64,000 nucleotides of DNA, from contig CACPJC010000003.1 in assembly GCA_902634185.1 (NCBI GenBank), positions 32,369 to 96,368 on the forward strand, read 5' to 3'. Position numbers and translations under genes: made by a program. Source of the stretch: an uncultured Candidatus Actinomarina sp. (GTDB taxonomy: Bacteria > Actinomycetota > Acidimicrobiia > Actinomarinales > Actinomarinaceae). This document shows positions 37,921 to 46,900 of the stretch, piece after piece (the stretch's first letter is position 1; the number at the start of each line of letters is the position of its first letter). The notes beneath the pieces were generated by a model. It did no database searches and was not told where the DNA came from. It saw only the letters and a list, made by a program, of their open reading frames with translations.

Positions 37921-40900
37921 TTAATTACCACTTTCTATCCTAGTAAGAATCCCTGAAACAACGAGTCTTTGCCTAGCAGAGTACCTAGGGTGACAAGTTG
38001 TCAATGTCAGCCTGTCATCACCTCGATTAAAAAGAACATAATCTCCTGTGTTAGCATCAACCACTTCTATATCATCCACAATGTAATGGTATTTATTTGA
38101 CCCATATGTTAAATAAATCTCATCTCCAATTTCGACCAAATCTAATCTACTGAAAGGGGCACCATATGTTGTCCTATGGCCTGCAATTCCAACATTTCCA
38201 CCTGAACCCGGTAGTTTTGTCCCAAGATAGTGTCCTGGACCAAATTGCAAATTAAGTTCATCAGTACCTGAAACAACATATTGATTTACGTTTATACCTG
38301 GAATTTCAAGAAGACCGAATATTTCAGGTTGAAATTCATCAATCTTTGCACTTTGGTCAATGATGGTAAAATCTTGCAAAGTTTCAAAAACAGGAATGTC
38401 ACTTTGGAATAAGCGAAGAGGATTTGAAAAAATTGTAGGAGGATCTACGTCCTTTATTTCCTCACCTAGATAGATTTGTTCAAGATAAGCTTGAGCATTG
38501 TCTTGTTGAACATTTGATAAAAACATTTGTTGTGTTGCATAAATACCAAAACCCATACCTGTAATTATCGATAAAACAGCAAATCCAAGAGCAGGTCGTT
38601 TTAATTTTTTTCTATCAAAAAATTTTCTGTTAATTTTTTTTGTGTCTTTTTTTCGAGAAAATACCTTTTTCTCCGCGATTTTTGCATCGAGCTCATTACC
38701 AGAATATATAATTTGAAAGTTATTTGAAATTAGACCCAAACGCTCTTCAAGAATTTCTTTTGTAAGTTCTGTATTTTCTTCCTCGCAAATAGATTTTATG
38801 TTTTCAATTGCGACTAGAGTATATTGAAGCTCACTATCAAGTGCTTGTATCTCTGATTGATAAGTTGTAAAACTCTTTGCATATGGAGCAAATTTATTTA
38901 TATCAATACTAATTTCTACTTTTTCTTGTATTAGTTTCTCAATTTTTGTTTTTAATTTGAAGGCATGCTTATAAATATCCTCTAGCGAAATTTCACTTTC
39001 CATTAGTTTTCTTTTTCGATAAGATGTAAAAAGTATTACACCACCAACTAAAAATACTGAACCGCTTATGACAATATAGTCTAAATTTATTCCTGTAGCT
39101 GCCAAGGCTATACTATCCTCTCGATAGATGTAGGTAACGTTGTAACTACCATCAGTGAAATATATGTCATCATCATCATCCCACTCTAGAAAGTCATTTC
39201 CAGTTTCATCAGTAAGAGGTGCTTCACATATATCATCCTCTTCTAATATCATATCCTCACAAAAGTCATCCACTAATGGATCCGTTGGGTCTGGATCCGT
39301 TGGGTCAACTATACACTCAAGAAGTTCTTGTAAGTTTGTTGGATTACAAAATTCTTCTGGAGCAGGATCCGTTGGGTTTATAGGATCAGGATCTCTTGGA
39401 TCAATTGGACCTGGATCTGGATCTGTAGGATCAGTTGTTGTAGTTATTGTAGGATCAGTTGTTGTAGTTATTGTAGGATCAGTTGTTGTAGTTGTTGGGC
39501 AATCAACTGTAAAGCTTGGACCCCAACGTTTCCAACCGCCTGAAAAAGAATTAGAAGTTGTAGAGGTTTTGTATCTCCATCTAACGTTTTGTCCGCTTGG
39601 AACATTTACAGATCCCCTTTCTGAGCTACCTGGTGGAACAGATCGATTAGAAACGAGTGTTGACCAGTTTTTTCCACCATCTAGGGAATACTCAGCTAAG
39701 AAATAAGCATTCGCATTTGAAGAGTCGGAGTTAGCCATATTGAAATGTATGAGTTTTGCACCTCCTGAACATTCCTCTCGTGTATTTGAAACAGAAGGGT
39801 TAATTATTGGAGGTCCTGGCAGTGTTGTTGTAGTTGTTGGACAATCAACTGTAAAGTCTGGACCCCAACGTTTCCAACCGCCTGAAAAAGAATTAGGAGT
39901 TGTCGAGGTTTTGTATCGCCATCTAACGTTTTGTCCGCTTGGAACATTTACAGAGGCCATTTCTGAGCTACCTGGTGCAACAGATTGATTAGAAACGAGT
40001 GTTGACCAGCTTTCCCCACCATCTAGGGAGTACTGAGCTAAGAAATAAGCATTTGCATTTGAAGAGTCTGAGTTAGCCATATGGAAGTGTGTGAGTTTTG
40101 CACCTCCAGAACAAGCATTTCGAGTATTTGAAACAGAAGGGTTAATTGTTGGAGGTCCTGGCAGTGTTGTTGTGGTCGTTGGAGACGGATCATCAATACA
40201 ATCTAAAACTTTCTTGGTACCACCTTTTGTTTTTCTACCACTTAGTTCATCTTTAATAATAAAACGAAGTTTATATGTAGATCCATTTGGGACAGATAAA
40301 AGTGTAGTTAAGTCTCGTGTTTCTCCAGCAGCAATACTAAAAGTTTGATCAACAACTTTGGCTTTGTTTATTCTAATTCTCATTCTAATTGTTATGCCAA
40401 CAGTTGACCTTGAGTTATCTACAATTAAACCAATTCTCGCAGTTCCATCATCATTACATTCCATGAAGTTTGCAATCCTAAAATCTACTCTTGGAATTTC
40501 AACTGTTGTAGTAGTAATTTCCGGCAGTGTCGTAGTAGTTGTTGTAGTTGTAGTAGTTGTAGTTGTAGTTGTAGTAGTTGTAGTAGTTGTAGTTGTAGTA
40601 GTAGTGGTTGTTGTTACAACACAGCTAGCCGTATATGAAAGAGTAGGATCTACGCCTGGGATATCTGTATCTTCAGTCACCCAAGTACTACTGTCATGAG
40701 CGCCTCCAGATTTTCTTGAACTATATCTCCATTGAATACTTTCTCCATTAGCTAATGCGGGAGCAGAATACGTCTCCGATGAAGTAGCTGGTACCTCTTC
40801 ATCATCTTTCAATTGTGTCCAGTTAGAGCCACCATCAGTTGAGTATTCCACCCTATAAAAGACTGAGACAGTCGAATCAGAACCGCTACTAAGAGTTATT

Positions 40901-43900: not shown

Positions 43901-46900
43901 TTACTTGTTGAAGAAGTTAGATAGGTCCATGTAATAGTAGATCCATCAGGAACTGTTTGGGCAGCCAGTGTTGTAGAAGCACCTGCTGCAACTGATTGAT
44001 TTGTGACTACTGTATTCCAGTTTCCACTATCGATTTTGTATCGAACATAAAAATATGCTGTTGTATTTGCTGATCCAGAGTTAGATAAAGTTAAAGTTGA
44101 ATTTTGAGATCCTCCAGAACAGCTACCATCAAGTGATTGGGATACAGAGGGGTCAATATATGGGCAATCAATTGTATCGCTATTTACTATAGTGGCGTCA
44201 CCGCTAAAATAACCACTTGTAGTTGATGTCTGATAATACCATTTAGCATAAGAGCCATCCGCAATCGGTAATGTGACGGTCACGGAGCTACCTGCAGCCA
44301 CTGCTATATTGAAGTTACTATCTCCCGACGATACGGTCAAATTAGATGATGATAAACCTCCTGATCCATCAAGTTGGTACCTTATCTTTACGTAGACAGT
44401 TGAATTTGCTGATGCGGAGTTTGATAAAGTGACCGTTACTGTTGCTGAACCAGCGGAACAACTACCGACTGATTGAGCAAAAGAGAAATCTGTATATACA
44501 CAATCAACAGTTGCACTATTCATATCACTAGCTGTCACATAACTTAGTCCCGTCCAGCTCCCTGACGCGTTAGAGCTTTTGTATCTCCATTGGATAGCTG
44601 ATCCATGAGGTACGCTTACTGTTAAAGAGGTGTTCGTTTGACCATTGGTAATTGTTAAATTGTCTGCTTCCTGTGCGTCTGTGTGTACAGTCCAAGTAGA
44701 CCCGCCATCGGTTGAGTACTCAGCTGTGACATACGCTGTTGATCCAGAAGTATTTTGAAGAGAAAGTGTAGATGTAGCAGAACCAGCTGAGCAACTACCA
44801 AGTGATTGTGAATCTGTCAGAGTTACTGCAGTAACACAGTCCACCGTTAATGCCGTACCATCTGGAGAGGTATAGCTTCCAGAAGTTGGATCCGATGATG
44901 CATCAGCTCGAGCTCGCCAAGATACCTGATACCCATGTGGTTGGGCGGATAATGAACGTGTAATCGATGCACCTTGAGCTAATTCAATTCCAGTTAAATT
45001 GTCAGTCCAATCAGATATATCACTGCCGTCTAAAGTGAGTTTGTACTGAAGGTCGACAAAAATTGAACCGTTAGCAGTGTTGGTGATTGTAGCTGAAGGA
45101 ACAGCTGAACCAGCTGAGCATGAACCCATAGCATCTGTAATTGTAAATGTTGCCGTTGCGCAGTTAACTGTTGAGCTATTCATGTCACTAGCTGTGATGT
45201 AACTTAGTCCTGTCCAATCACCTGATGTATCAGAGCTCTTGTACCTCCATTGAATTGATGAGCCGTGAGAAACACTGACCGTCAGCGAGGTATTCGTCTG
45301 ACCATTAGTAATAGTTAAATTATCTGCTTCCTGTGCGTCAGTGTGAACAGTCCAACTAGAACCACCATTGGTTGAGTACTCAGCAGTAACATACGCGGTT
45401 GAACCTGAACTATTTTGTAGTGATAGTGTAGAGGTAGCAGAGCCTTCAGAACAACTACCAAGTGATTGTGAGTCAGTGAGGCTAACTGCTGTTGGATCAG
45501 GAGAACAACCGGAGGCATTAATCGTTATTGAAGAAAGAGCAGTCGTATTTGAAGTCGGTTCACGCAAATCATAAGTAGTGTTTTCTGCATACCAACTAAT
45601 TACCACTGTAGCACCATTAGATTGACCTGGAACATCTAGGGAGGTATTGCTCGATGATGACGAGACAGAAGTGCCTGATGTCAGAGATTGTGAGCTTCCA
45701 CCATTAACTGTATATGTAACAACAAAGTTAGTAGTTACGTTAGAACTTAAGTTATTTAAGGTAACATCTATTTTACGATTTGACCCATCACAACTTCCCT
45801 GAGTAGCTGTAACAGTGGGGGCGAAATCAACATTGGGTGCACCTTCGTGGCATGCAGCACCATCATTTTTATTTGCTCCAGATTGTACTGTGCCTAGACT
45901 TGAACTCCAGCTCCAACTACTTCCGTTATATTCAGCTTTTCGAACATCTCCAGTTGAATTATGCACAAAATAAGCATGTTCTCCACCAAATCCAAACGCA
46001 GCACCAACATCTGAATTGCTCCATGAATATGGTGAAGTTGGTGAGCTTAATGAGTGGTCAGTTATTTCTATTGTGAAAGAACTCCCAGATACAATTAAGT
46101 ATCCAAGCATTACTTGATCATTTACATTGTCATAAGCCACAAAATCTGCTTCGTGGTTTACACCTCCACTAGAGAATGTTGGAAAGTTTGAACCATCTCT
46201 CAACCAGGTAAAGTCTTTTGCTTTAGCTAAATTACCTGCAACAGAGTTTGTGTTTACTGTAAGAGAGGAAGTTACATCTGTATAATTTGAAGAGTTAGTG
46301 TAATCTGTACCATCTATACGAATTAAGAGTGGTGATGAGCCCTTTAAGAACCCATTACCTGAAAGTAAATAACCAGTTCCGTTGTATTCAAAATAGGATG
46401 CAGCATTATTATCAGCAGAACTAAAACTGGCTATTAACGATGGGTTGTTATCAGCAATATTATCGTTGTTAGCATCAGTTGCATCCATATAGTAAAGTGT
46501 CCTATTTTTACTCGAATCTTTCCGAATCATCCAGAGATTTCCAAGATTATCCATCATCGAGTTGTTCCACTCATTTGAATTTGATCCTGGAAGGTTTTGA
46601 TACTCGAATGTTGCTCCTGATGGTGTGGCAGGACTAGAACTCACAAGATTTCCTGAGTTACTGTCCCACCCGTATACTTCAACTTTGTCATCTGAAGAGT
46701 TGTATTTTGTTTGATAACCTAATGGATTTCCATCTGAGTTAAAACATGAGAGCTGTGAAGATGCAAAAGCAGGTTCAGGATCAACTGTCTCAATGGTCAC
46801 ATATGCAAGAGAGACAATCATTAAAAATGACATAACTAAATTGAAAGTTTTCTTATTAAAGACGAACGAAAACAGCTTTTTACACAAAAGCACAACAAAG

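What the first reader, a model, noticed from the sequence alone, without database searches (positions are those of the whole stretch)
39499..45852. About 19 Cys-bounded ~110-aa repeats, most with an Asp-box, kept similar at protein level but diverged at synonymous sites
Seen: each unit starts and ends at a (D)C(P) boundary and has a second Cys ~14 residues in (…SQSLGSCSAGS…). It then has a strand AY(V/F)xVEYSxDGGSxW and HGSAIQWRYKxSxTSGxFxG. SxDxGxxW is the Asp-box/BNR signature, known from sialidases and other beta-hairpin contexts. Here it recurs once per unit, in most units (a few are degenerate), in what looks like a new Ig-like or beta-sandwich repeat. Units at ~45190..45510, ~44530..44850 and ~43550..43870 are about 90 percent identical in protein. 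By eye they differ at many third-codon positions (for example gtacctccattgaattgatgagcc versus gtatctccattggatagctgatcc). That argues for purifying selection on old duplicates rather than recent amplification or assembly collapse. The two C-terminal units (39499..40182) are much more similar at the DNA level. The N-terminal ~300 aa (45853..~46760) is unique, rich in N/S/G/D, and could be a ligand-binding head.
Basis: partly seen in the sequence, partly recalled or inferred. Interest (0 to 1): 0.55.

Follow-up and report, generated by a model that had tools for sequence, protein, structure and literature searches.

The report
Giant surface fibre fused to sortase
The repeats are real and form the stalk of a 3003-residue cell-surface protein of the tiny marine bacterium Candidatus Actinomarina, which also carries, in the same polypeptide, the sortase enzyme expected to cut it and attach it to the cell wall.

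Summary
One ORF (window 37921-46932, minus strand, 3003 aa) holds 19 units of 97-117 aa. Each is bracketed by an invariant Cys pair, and 12 carry a canonical Asp-box. Units u02/u04/u07 are 84-87% identical in protein and 79-84% in DNA (dS 0.55-1.36, dN/dS 0.05-0.16). u18/u19 are young (dS 0.18).

An AlphaFold2 model of one unit (pLDDT 96) is an Ig/FN3-like beta-sandwich. It has no close solved relative and reaches no Pfam model as a single unit. The family is narrow: 426 hits among 1.84 billion representative proteins.

The N-terminal head is predicted to be a five-bladed beta-propeller. After the stalk come LAATG, a transmembrane helix and an RKRK tail, which together form a class E sortase sorting signal. 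The ORF then continues through a cytoplasmic loop and a second helix into a class E-like sortase domain with the catalytic His, Cys and Arg and the class E tyrosine intact.

This substrate-sortase fusion sits at the same thrC-rho locus in all five related contigs examined and recurs in all 21 Actinomarinales species genomes that match the whole module. Sister lineages keep the two as adjacent genes. I read it as a self-anchoring fibrillar surface protein. Processing is inferred, not shown. I found no published description.

The parts
37921..46932 (-). Whole gene: 3003-aa head-stalk-sorting signal-sortase fusion protein. The GTG at 46932 is the first possible start; the true start may be slightly downstream.
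   Evidence: Single uninterrupted ORF. Homologues of 1471-2337 aa have the same architecture.
46762..46932 (-). N-terminal basic and hydrophobic signal segment, aa 1-57, ending in the conserved ...EPAFA motif, presumably the signal-peptidase site.
   Evidence: Read from the sequence. The same ...EP(A/S)(F/Y)A motif precedes every homologous head. No signal-peptide predictor was run.
45841..46761 (-). Head, aa 58-364: predicted five-bladed beta-propeller closed by a conserved Cys pair (C63, C361).
40618..45822 (-). Stalk units u01-u16, aa 371-2105: Cys-clasped Ig/FN3-like beta-sandwich repeats with an Asp-box hairpin.
   Evidence: Repeat HMM, alignments A1 and A2, AF2 model of u09, dN/dS.
40528..40614 (-). 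Poly-Thr linker, 29 residues (aa 2107-2135), encoded by mixed ACA, ACT, ACC and ACG codons.
   Evidence: TRF sees only an imperfect 6-15 nt periodicity.
40195..40488 (-). Unit u17, aa 2149-2246: a divergent unit without an Asp-box, positionally conserved in all homologues.
39496..40143 (-). Units u18 and u19, aa 2264-2479: a young duplicate pair (91% DNA identity, dS 0.18) separated by a PT-rich linker.
39106..39495 (-). Thr/Pro/Asp-rich linker plus a conserved acidic four-Cys wall-proximal module, aa 2480-2609 (...GNDF.EWD...Y.TDG.Y.V.Y.Y.EDS...).
   Evidence: The module is conserved across the C-terminal module alignment.
39091..39105 (-). LAATG pentapeptide, aa 2610-2614: class E-type (LAxTG) sortase recognition motif. 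Predicted cleavage is between T2613 and G2614.
   Evidence: It is the only sorting-signal-like site in the 64-kb window. Motif positions A, T and G are at least 90% conserved down to 35-42% module identity.
39004..39090 (-). TM helix 1 plus the basic YRKRKL tail, aa 2615-2643: the membrane-retention part of the sorting signal, doubling as the first helix of the sortase.
   Evidence: Unfused homologues end with a stop codon after this element.
38599..39003 (-). Predicted cytoplasmic loop, aa 2644-2778: charged, probably helical, with a conserved SLE.IYKNAFKLK.K.E motif.
   Evidence: Basic residues flank it at both membrane ends. Conservation in alignment A5. Secondary structure was not predicted.
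38527..38598 (-). TM helix 2, aa 2779-2802, preceded by a K/R cluster. It returns the chain to the outside.
37924..38526 (-). Extracellular linker and class E-like sortase catalytic domain, aa 2803-3003. Y2902 is the class E Tyr; H2919, C2980 and R2989 are the catalytic triad.
   Evidence: Pfam Sortase 1.6e-29. NCBIfam class_E_sortase gives the best hit, 7e-30, but below its cut-off. The nearest solved structures are actinobacterial class E enzymes 5uus and 5go5. The four residues are invariant in A5.

Best explanation
The region encodes the stalk of a giant, cell-wall-anchored fibrillar surface protein of a Candidatus Actinomarina bacterium, fused in one polypeptide to its own dedicated class E-type sortase.

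Proposed mechanism, step by step:
1. The N-terminal signal segment drives Sec export (inferred).
2. A five-bladed beta-propeller head and 19 Ig/FN3-like units fold outside the cell. Each unit is probably stapled by a disulfide between its two invariant Cys. The Asp-box stabilises one hairpin. Folds are predicted with high confidence; the disulfides are inferred from invariance.
3. The chain stays held in the membrane by LAATG, TM1 and the RKRK tail. This is a canonical sorting signal, shown by sequence and by unfused homologues that stop at exactly this point.
4. The chain continues through a cytoplasmic loop of about 135 residues and TM2 to an extracellular sortase domain. The topology is consistent with the positive-inside rule.
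5. That domain, acting in cis or from a neighbouring molecule, cleaves between T2613 and G2614 and transfers the 2613-residue head-stalk to a peptidoglycan precursor (inferred from class E sortase chemistry).
6. This leaves a 390-residue two-helix sortase. That is the same length as, and a similar architecture to, the free-standing sortase encoded next to an unfused substrate in a sister lineage.

The expected product is a fibre of roughly 80-100 nm (my estimate, about 4 nm per domain) on a cell about 0.3 um across.

The head is hypervariable, about 30% identical between genomes whose flanking genes are 79-95% identical. The repeat number varies from 6 to 19 between species. This pattern fits an exposed interaction or protection surface rather than a conserved enzyme. 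The ligand is unknown.
For: Repeats and selection.

Head fold.

Sorting signal: LAATG, a hydrophobic stretch and RKRK form the only such site in the window. The motif is conserved as [LM]A[AEDN]TG in dozens of 90%-identity clusters at 42-97% identity to the window's module.

Sortase:
- Pfam 1.6e-29.
- Nearest solved structures are class E enzymes.
- His, Cys and Arg and the 'GHY' tyrosine are invariant. That tyrosine equals SrtE1 Y229, per the VGH-Y mutagenesis primer in PMC5148588.

The fusion is real and selected:
- It is an uninterrupted ORF here.
- It is also uninterrupted in P0001, P0002, P0018 and P0057.
- P0002 has no Met after the basic tail.
- All 21 GTDB species-representative loci that match the whole module carry the motif and the sortase in the same ORF. 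In 16 of them the same ORF also has repeat-HMM hits upstream, and the other five are short contig-edge fragments. Five ORFs are complete, at 2258-2876 codons with 12-18 repeats. Two are broken only by a frameshift.

Rosetta-stone support:
- L004/L005 have a 1686-1687-aa substrate. In L004 it ends IAATG-TM-RRRRD-TAA-TAA, followed 6 nt later by a 390-aa two-TM sortase.
- P0051 ends at IADTG-TM-RRRKS.
- Of nine deeper species loci, eight show a giant substrate ORF ending in a sorting signal and abutting a two-TM sortase gene. In five of these the substrate exceeds 3,140 aa and runs off the fetched flank.

Synteny: hom-thrC-[giant]-tetR-481 aa-264 aa-rho is kept in L002 and L006, in L003 without the tetR-like gene, and its upstream part in L001 and L004.

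Organism: cluster members and loci are named Candidatus Actinomarina or Acidimicrobiia. Cell size and GC content are from PMC3747508.
Against: - No experiment or proteomic datum shows cleavage, wall attachment or even expression.
- The sortase scores below NCBIfam's curated class E cut-off (104 against 160 bits).
- The cell-wall chemistry of Actinomarinales is unknown (PMC7771536).
- The disulfides and the signal peptide were not tested with a dedicated tool, and I could not inspect model coordinates.
- Cis and trans cleavage cannot be distinguished.
- The direction of the event, fusion or fission, is not established.
- The head's closest fold match is a nucleotidase (6% identity), so an enzymatic head cannot be excluded.
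Confidence: 0.72

Rival explanations
1. The fusion protein is never cleaved. It is a permanently membrane-anchored fibre with two helices. Its C-terminal sortase domain serves other substrates, or acts as a non-catalytic wall-binding or docking module.
For: No evidence of processing exists. The sorting motif lies 389 residues from the C-terminus, unlike every characterised substrate. L001 and L013 carry additional giant paralogues nearby that a fused sortase could serve in trans.
Against: The A, T and G positions of the pentapeptide are at least 90% conserved at 35-42% overall module identity. They are lost only in the free-standing 390-aa sortase that no longer follows a substrate in frame. 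This is the expected pattern if the motif is used. The catalytic His, Cys, Arg and the class E Tyr are invariant. No other sorting signal is found in the 64-kb window.
Confidence: 0.15
2. The repeats are a product of recent amplification, gene conversion or assembly collapse, and the apparent conservation is not due to selection.
For: u18/u19 are 91% identical in DNA with dS 0.18 and a relaxed dN/dS of 0.39. u04/u07 are closer (dS 0.55) than u02/u04 (dS 1.36), so the duplications occurred at different times, or some conversion has taken place.
Against: No two units exceed 91% DNA identity. dS for most similar pairs equals inter-species orthologous dS, with dN/dS 0.05-0.16. The same 19-, 18-, 15-, 14-, 13- and 12-unit architectures are assembled independently in single-cell genomes and metagenomes.
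Confidence: 0.03
3. The protein is an enzyme display scaffold. The propeller head is an apyrase- or nucleotidase-like or glycan-acting enzyme, held away from the cell to scavenge phosphate or nucleosides in oligotrophic water.
Against: Identity to SCAN-1 is 6%. The invariant head columns are mostly Gly, Cys and aromatic residues, with only S9, D183, N268 and D300 polar. Heads differ by about 70% between otherwise close genomes, which is unusual for a conserved catalytic site. There is no Pfam or NCBIfam hit.
Confidence: 0.1

Closest known systems
Class E sortases and their LAxTG substrates in Actinobacteria (Streptomyces coelicolor SrtE1/SrtE2 with chaplins; Corynebacterium SrtF; Actinomyces oris SrtA)
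   Same: The catalytic domain has the His-Cys-Arg triad and the beta3/beta4-loop 'GHY' tyrosine. The recognition motif is LAxTG followed by a TM helix and a basic tail. It occurs in the actinobacterial lineage. SrtE1 also has a functionally required cytoplasmic extension of about 100-200 aa (PMC5148588), reminiscent of the cytoplasmic loop here.
   Different: Here the enzyme is translated as the C-terminal part of its substrate. It has two TM helices instead of one. It scores below the NCBIfam class E cut-off. It occurs in a low-GC (about 35%) streamlined marine lineage rather than in the soil, freshwater or host-associated, mostly high-GC actinobacteria where class E enzymes have been studied.
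Dedicated one-sortase/one-target systems (the proteobacterial dedicated sortase, or 'marine'/class GN sortase, with its adjacent single target; from NCBIfam TIGR03784 and my own knowledge)
   Same: A sortase is genetically coupled to a single adjacent substrate. The unfused Actinomarinales lineages (L004, L028-L036) have exactly this layout.
   Different: A different sortase class: TIGR03784 scores 59 bits against a cut-off of 158. The target is a different kind of protein. In those systems enzyme and target are separate genes, whereas here they are one polypeptide.
Fibrillar adhesins of Gram-positive bacteria (Monzon and Bateman) and 'periscope' proteins such as SasG or Rib-domain proteins
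   Same: An N-terminal distal functional domain, a stalk of tandem Ig-like domains and a C-terminal sortase anchor. Repeat number varies between lineages (6-19).
   Different: The stalk domain is not one of the catalogued Pfam stalk families. The units are diverged in DNA (at most 91%, mostly below 70%), unlike the near-identical repeats of periscope proteins. The host is a free-living planktonic oligotroph, not a host-associated bacterium. The anchor motif is 389 residues from the C-terminus, so published screens that look in the last 50 residues would miss it.
Engineered self-cleaving sortase fusions used for protein purification and display
   Same: Sortase and its recognition motif sit in one chain, so the enzyme can process the polypeptide that carries it.
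   Different: Those are laboratory constructs, usually soluble SrtA-LPXTG-target. This is a natural membrane-embedded arrangement ordered target-LAATG-TM-loop-TM-sortase.
Asp-box (BNR) containing folds: sialidase propellers, reelin subrepeats, SprB repeats, CHB_HEX_C domains
   Same: The S-x-D-x-G-x-x-W hairpin. Weak partial profile matches arise from it.

Membership tests
Class E sortase | Sortase fold with the catalytic His, Cys (TLxTC) and Arg | tested here: met
   Pfam Sortase 1.6e-29 over profile positions 1-122 of 125. H2919, C2980 and R2989 are invariant in 16 diverse homologues.
Class E sortase | Conserved tyrosine at the start of the beta3/beta4 loop (SrtE1 Y229, sequence context VGH-Y) that favours Ala at P3 | tested here: met
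   The window has GPGHY with Y2902, invariant in A5. It aligns with the GHY of class E structures 5uus and 5go5. The SrtE1 context was read from the Y229A primer in PMC5148588.
Class E sortase | Cognate substrates carry LAxTG rather than LPxTG | tested here: met
   LAATG in cis. [LM]A[AEDN]TG in homologues.
Class E sortase | Score at or above the curated NCBIfam NF033747 cut-off | tested here: not met
   104.4 bits against a cut-off of 160. It is still the best-scoring sortase class. NCBI names fragments of homologues 'class E sortase, partial'.
Class E sortase | Transpeptidase activity on LAxTG peptides | not testable with these tools
   Needs biochemistry.
Sortase-anchored surface protein (cell-wall sorting signal) | Pentapeptide motif followed by a hydrophobic helix and a cluster of basic residues | tested here: met
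   LAATG-INLDY-IVISGSVFLVGGVILFTS-YRKRKL.
Sortase-anchored surface protein (cell-wall sorting signal) | The sorting signal lies at the extreme C-terminus of the precursor | tested here: not met
   389 residues follow the motif in the window protein. The feature is met in the unfused homologues P0051, L004 and L028-L036.
Sortase-anchored surface protein (cell-wall sorting signal) | N-terminal signal peptide | tested here: inconclusive
   A basic and hydrophobic segment ending in EPAFA is conserved in all homologues. No predictor was available.
Fibrillar adhesin-like protein | Stalk of tandem repeated beta-sandwich domains plus a distinct distal domain plus a surface anchor | tested here: met
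   19 units, a propeller head and a sorting signal.
Fibrillar adhesin-like protein | Adhesive (ligand-binding) activity of the distal domain | not testable with these tools
   The head has no Pfam or NCBIfam match. Only its fold is known.
Standard Pfam stalk or Ig-like families (fn3, Big_x, Cadherin, etc.) | Significant per-domain match to the family HMM | tested here: not met
   None is listed for the whole protein. For 19 units scanned singly, the best result is Reelin_subrepeat-B at 2.3e-4 in 5 units.
Reelin subrepeat B (PF21471) | Match over the whole ~127-position profile and the 11-strand jelly-roll fold | tested here: not met
BNR/Asp-box motif | S-x-D-x-G-x-x-W in a beta-hairpin | tested here: met
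   12 of 19 units. In the model the motif (residues 39-46 of u09) spans the turn between strands 32-39 and 47-55.
Periscope proteins | Tandem repeats nearly identical at the DNA level, allowing rapid length change | tested here: not met
   Maximum 91% DNA identity, for one pair. Most pairs are 50-70%.

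The most novel reading that the evidence does not exclude
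This is the first recognised natural substrate-sortase fusion. A giant surface fibre carries its own class E sortase behind its sorting signal, cuts itself (or its neighbours) free at LAAT|G, and so installs both a wall-linked fibre and a free two-helix sortase in a fixed 1:1 ratio. The arrangement would have arisen by fusion of an ancestral adjacent substrate-sortase gene pair. It is fixed across the Candidatus Actinomarina clade, one of the smallest and most streamlined free-living bacteria, where this single gene takes about 0.8% of the genome.
Probability: 0.5. Interest if true: 0.75.

Novelty: new variant of a known kind. Interest (0 to 1): 0.62.

Why it matters
Sortase biology has been worked out with separate enzyme and substrate genes. 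A conserved natural fusion would be a new solution to substrate targeting and stoichiometry. It offers a clean natural system for asking whether sortases can act in cis. It could also provide a compact self-anchoring display module for LAxTG-type sortagging.

For marine microbiology, it identifies the largest and probably most exposed protein of an abundant, uncultured, ultra-small actinobacterium whose envelope is otherwise unknown. It shows that these cells have sortase-dependent wall anchoring. It also points to a hypervariable propeller head as a likely interface with phages, grazers, particles or dissolved substrates.

Methodologically, screens that look for sorting motifs only in the last 50 residues miss this class. 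Current annotation splits it into 'hypothetical protein' and 'class E sortase, partial'.

The repeat itself is an uncatalogued Cys-clasped, Asp-box-bearing Ig/FN3-like stalk domain that merits a family model.

Tried and rejected
- The full-length word-indexed search returned only 2 proteins, because low-complexity words saturated the candidate list. I recovered homologues with an exhaustive profile search and a search using only the C-terminal module.
- The profile search through the word index returned only fragments under 200 aa.
- The afdb50 fold library was unavailable, so no comparison was made with AlphaFold DB domains.
I rebuilt it from allowed proteins.
- I considered a sialidase-like or propeller reading of the Asp-boxes. 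I rejected it because there is one motif per Ig-like domain and the PDB profile hits to sialidases are motif-only (E >= 0.006).
- I considered a pilus. I rejected it because there is no class C sortase hit above cut-off, the gene is a single giant rather than a set of pilin genes, and the sortase is class E-type. A pilin motif was not searched for.
- I tested whether synonymous divergence is actively driven, for example to avoid recombination. Observed codon differences (0.28-0.44) are below the saturation expectation (0.59), so there is no support.
- I checked two apparent exceptions to the fusion, L013 and L017. Both are the fused arrangement interrupted by a frameshift.
- Literature searches for a natural sortase-substrate fusion, or for this protein in Actinomarina papers, found nothing. 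This is absence within an open-access library only.
- I could not read model coordinates, so the Cys-Cys distance was not measured.

Full report
**1. What is in the sequence**

The flagged interval 39499-45852 lies inside a single ORF on the minus strand, 37921-46932, of 3003 codons. It corresponds exactly to Cys361-Cys2478 of the product.

The Cys positions alternate with gaps of about 14 and about 92 residues. I cut the chain at these pairs, aligned the 19 pieces and built an HMM. The HMM recovers 19 and only 19 units in this protein (i-Evalues 5e-18 to 4e-39). It also finds 14 and 13 units in two homologues. Units are 97-117 aa.

In an alignment of 50 units from three full-length proteins and several fragments, the only invariant columns are the two Cys.

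A canonical Asp-box (S-x-D/N-x-G/S-x-x-W/Y/F) is present in 12 of 19 units. It is degenerate in six units and absent in u17. In u15 the canonical motif sits at the second, C-terminal motif site. In other units that site holds the Asp-box-like K-S-S-x-T-S-G-x-F/W.

The array is interrupted by a 29-residue poly-Thr run between u16 and u17, encoded by mixed Thr codons, and by a PT-rich linker between u18 and u19.

**2. Similar in protein, diverged at synonymous sites**

I computed Nei-Gojobori estimates on the codon alignment.

| Pair | Protein identity | DNA identity | dS | dN/dS |
|---|---|---|---|---|
| u02/u04 | 87% | 80% | 1.36 | 0.05 |
| u02/u07 | 84% | 79% | 1.20 | 0.08 |
| u04/u07 | 84% | 84% | 0.55 | 0.16 |
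| u09/u10 | 78% | 76% | 1.09 | 0.14 |
| u18/u19 | 87% | 91% | 0.18 | 0.39 |

TRF and the repeat finder see no DNA copies above 91% identity. Assembly collapse or very recent amplification is therefore excluded.

For calibration I compared the window with the syntenic locus of an Actinomarina single-cell genome (L006, GCA_902518205.1). Flanking hom, thrC, tetR, rho and two unknown genes have orthologous dS of 0.75-1.43 at 79-95% protein identity. The older unit duplications are therefore about as old as the split between Actinomarina species.

At sites with identical amino acids, 28-44% use different codons, against 59% expected at saturation. Ordinary purifying selection on moderately old duplicates is enough. 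I see no sign of driven codon diversification.

Comparing units across proteins shows two zones:
- u01 and u13-u17 have positional orthologues in the homologues, at 42-75% identity.
- u02/u04/u07, u09/u10/u12 and u18/u19 are closer to each other than to any unit elsewhere. They are lineage-specific expansions of the middle and base of the stalk.

The near-identical trio is interleaved with divergent units. This fits the known tendency of adjacent domains to differ (my knowledge, not tested). u09/u10 and u18/u19 are adjacent, however.

**3. What the unit is**

AlphaFold2 on u09 with the 50-unit alignment gives pLDDT 96.4 and pTM 0.87. The model has six clear strands and an ordered C-terminal segment. 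The Asp-box lies in the turn between strands 3 and 4.

- Foldseek finds nothing at E <= 1e-3.
- At the sequence level, the whole protein collects summed partial matches to Reelin_subrepeat-B (profile positions 59-121 of 127), Tli3, CHB_HEX_C and BNR.
- When the 19 units are scanned one at a time, nothing reaches significance. The best is Reelin_subrepeat-B at 2.3e-4 in five units.
- A profile search of PDB sequences hits only sialidase Asp-boxes (E >= 0.006).
- An exhaustive HMMER search of 1.84 billion representative proteins finds only 426 proteins at E <= 1e-3 and 121 at E <= 1e-10. The four distant hits I inspected are other Asp-box-bearing repeats, namely SprB and fn3/SLH proteins.

The unit is therefore an uncatalogued, narrowly distributed, Cys-clasped Ig/FN3-like stalk domain.

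**4. The rest of the protein**

*Sorting signal.* After u19 come a Thr/Pro/Asp linker and a conserved acidic four-Cys module. Then follows LAATG-INLDY-IVISGSVFLVGGVILFTS-YRKRKL. This is a textbook cell-wall sorting signal of the class E (LAxTG) type. It is the only such site in the 64-kb window.

*Sortase.* The ORF does not stop there. It continues through a charged loop of about 135 residues flanked by basic clusters, then a second hydrophobic helix, then a sortase domain.
- Pfam Sortase scores 1.6e-29.
- The best NCBIfam model is class_E_sortase, at 104 bits, below its cut-off of 160.
- The nearest solved structures are the actinobacterial class E enzymes 5uus and 5go5.
- H2919, C2980 and R2989 are invariant in 16 homologues spanning 34-88% identity.
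- So is Y2902 in 'GPGHY', the counterpart of SrtE1 Y229. I read the context V-G-H-Y from the mutagenesis primer in PMC5148588.
- The charge distribution places the loop in the cytoplasm and the catalytic domain outside, next to the LAATG site.

**5. The fusion is conserved, and unfused relatives exist**

*Homologues.* P0001 (2331 aa), P0018 (2337 aa), P0002 (2253 aa) and P0057 (1471 aa) all have the layout head, repeats, [LM]A[AED]TG, TM, basic tail, loop, TM, sortase in one ORF. P0002 has no Met after the basic tail, so an internal start is unlikely.

*C-terminal module search.* This returned dozens of 90%-identity clusters at 42-97% identity to the window's module that carry the motif and the sortase together. 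Most are contig-truncated. Some are annotated 'class E sortase, partial [Candidatus Actinomarina sp.]'.

*Species-representative genomes (GTDB).*
- 21 loci (L007-L027) match the whole module, and all carry the motif and the sortase in one ORF. They are named Candidatus Actinomarina, Actinomarinales or OCS155, and one only Actinomycetota.
- In 16 of them the same ORF also has repeat-HMM hits upstream. The other five are short contig-edge fragments.
- Five ORFs are complete, at 2258-2876 codons with 12-18 repeats.
- Two (L013, L017) are the same arrangement broken by a frameshift.
- The rest run off contig ends.

*Unfused arrangements.* Nine further species (L028-L036) match only from the cytoplasmic loop onward.
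- In eight of them a giant upstream ORF ends in [FY]AxTG or IPFTG, a TM helix and a short basic tail.
- In five of these the ORF exceeds 3,140 aa and runs off the fetched flank.
- It is abutted or overlapped by a separate two-TM sortase gene.
- A third arrangement is seen in L004/L005, where a 1686-1687-aa substrate precedes the sortase gene. In L004 it ends IAATG-TM-RRRRD-TAA-TAA and is followed 6 nt later by a 390-aa two-TM sortase.
- That 390-aa length is exactly what remains of the window protein after the predicted cut, G2614-N3003.
- In L001 an unfused substrate (P0051) is followed by a second giant gene with the other head type.
- Other Acidimicrobiia match mainly the catalytic domain.

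These Rosetta-stone relationships show that the N-terminal part is a bona fide sortase substrate and the C-terminal part a bona fide dedicated sortase. Derivation of the fusion from an adjacent gene pair is the more parsimonious reading. I did not establish the direction with a tree.

*Synteny.* The order hom-thrC-[giant]-tetR-like-481 aa-264 aa-rho is conserved in L002 and L006. L003 has it without the tetR-like gene, and the upstream part is seen in L001 and L004. The gene therefore appears to be a core-genome locus, not a mobile island.

**6. Mechanism proposed**

The sequence and comparative data show a sorting signal, an intact class E-like active site on the same side of the membrane, and conservation of both.

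From established sortase chemistry (PMC5148588, PMC8225981) I infer the following steps:
1. Sec export.
2. Oxidative folding of the head and the 19 units.
3. Retention by TM1.
4. Nucleophilic attack by C2980 on the T2613-G2614 bond, in cis or between neighbouring molecules.
5. Transfer of the 2613-residue head-stalk to a peptidoglycan precursor.
6. Release of a 390-residue two-helix sortase that may turn over further copies.

At about 4 nm per domain, the fibre would be about 80-100 nm long (my estimate). The cells have a volume of about 0.013 um3 (PMC3747508), which corresponds to a diameter of about 0.3 um.

Between the window and L006, the C-terminal module is 82% identical and the flanking genes are 79-95% identical. 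The heads are only about 30% identical. Repeat numbers range from 6 to 19 across species. A conserved anchor with a hypervariable tip is what one expects of an exposed interaction or protection surface. The ligand is unknown, and an enzymatic head cannot be excluded.

**7. Novelty and limits**

Each element is known: the class E sortase, the LAxTG signal, the fibrillar head-stalk-anchor design, the Asp-box and the Ig-like stalk. The new points are:
- the stalk domain family;
- the natural, clade-wide fusion of a sortase to its substrate with a two-helix topology;
- its presence in Actinomarinales, whose envelope is undescribed.

I found no mention of it in the two Actinomarina genome papers, in a sortase review, or in targeted full-text searches. 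That library covers only open-access literature. Published fibrillar-adhesin screens look for anchor motifs in the last 50 residues and would miss this protein.

Nothing here demonstrates expression, cleavage or wall attachment. The disulfides, the signal peptide and the helical nature of the loop are inferred.

Noticed in passing
window 35051-37920 (-): Three genes directly downstream of the giant gene are syntenic with it in L002 and L006; L003 lacks the TetR-like gene. They are a TetR-like regulator (37291-37920, start abutting the giant's stop), a 481-aa polytopic membrane protein with an extracellular N-domain and a poly-Thr/Pro linker (35842-37287), and a 264-aa exported protein with a long poly-Thr linker and an HESLH (HExxH-like) motif (35051-35845). 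The last two have no Pfam hit. They may be functionally linked to the fibre.
   Followed up: partly
window 49616-52180 (-): An 854-aa protein with a peptidoglycan-binding domain (PG_binding_1) and weak reprolysin-like metalloprotease matches lies just upstream of hom. Its counterpart in L002 is an 882-aa protein with PG_binding_1. It is another large envelope protein near the locus.
   Followed up: no
window 40954-41304 (-), unit u15: u15 lacks the Asp-box at the usual hairpin but carries a perfect one (YSTDGGSTW) at the second motif site. Other units have the degenerate K-S-S-x-T-S-G-x-F there. This suggests that each unit contains two Asp-box-type hairpins of common origin.
   Followed up: partly
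L001 7655-9259; L013 1-3403 and 17532-21248: Some Actinomarinales genomes carry two or more giant repeat proteins in tandem, with different head types. In L001 an unfused one is followed by a second with the P0001-type head. L013 has further repeat-bearing ORFs both upstream and about 6 kb downstream of the sortase.
   Followed up: partly
L028-L036 (for example L028 3-9473 and 9461-11104): Deeper Actinomarinales lineages have a substrate of more than 3,140 aa, in five of the loci, with non-canonical motifs (FAPTG, FADTG, YAVTG, IPFTG). The sortase gene overlaps or abuts its stop. Related two-TM sortases found in the protein search (P0284, P0286, P0304, P0310) carry an extra domain listed as PF21096 in the precomputed Pfam annotation.
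   Followed up: partly
L029, L032, L035; P0258: Contigs carrying this Actinomarinales-type sortase locus are filed in MAGs labelled Flavobacteriales, Gammaproteobacteria, Anaerolineales and Nitrosopumilaceae. These are probably binning contaminants.
   Followed up: no
window 10955-17123 (-): A phosphate-related cluster (ppx-like, histidine phosphatase, ppk1, a two-component pair, phoU, pstB-like ABC ATPase) lies in the lowest-GC part of the window (27-32% GC).
   Followed up: no
window 38599-39003 (-) and alignment A5: The cytoplasmic loop between the two helices has a well-conserved motif (SLE.IYKNAFKLK.K.E...VE..ID) even at about 35% overall identity. It recalls the functionally required cytoplasmic extension of Streptomyces SrtE1. 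Its role is unknown.
   Followed up: no
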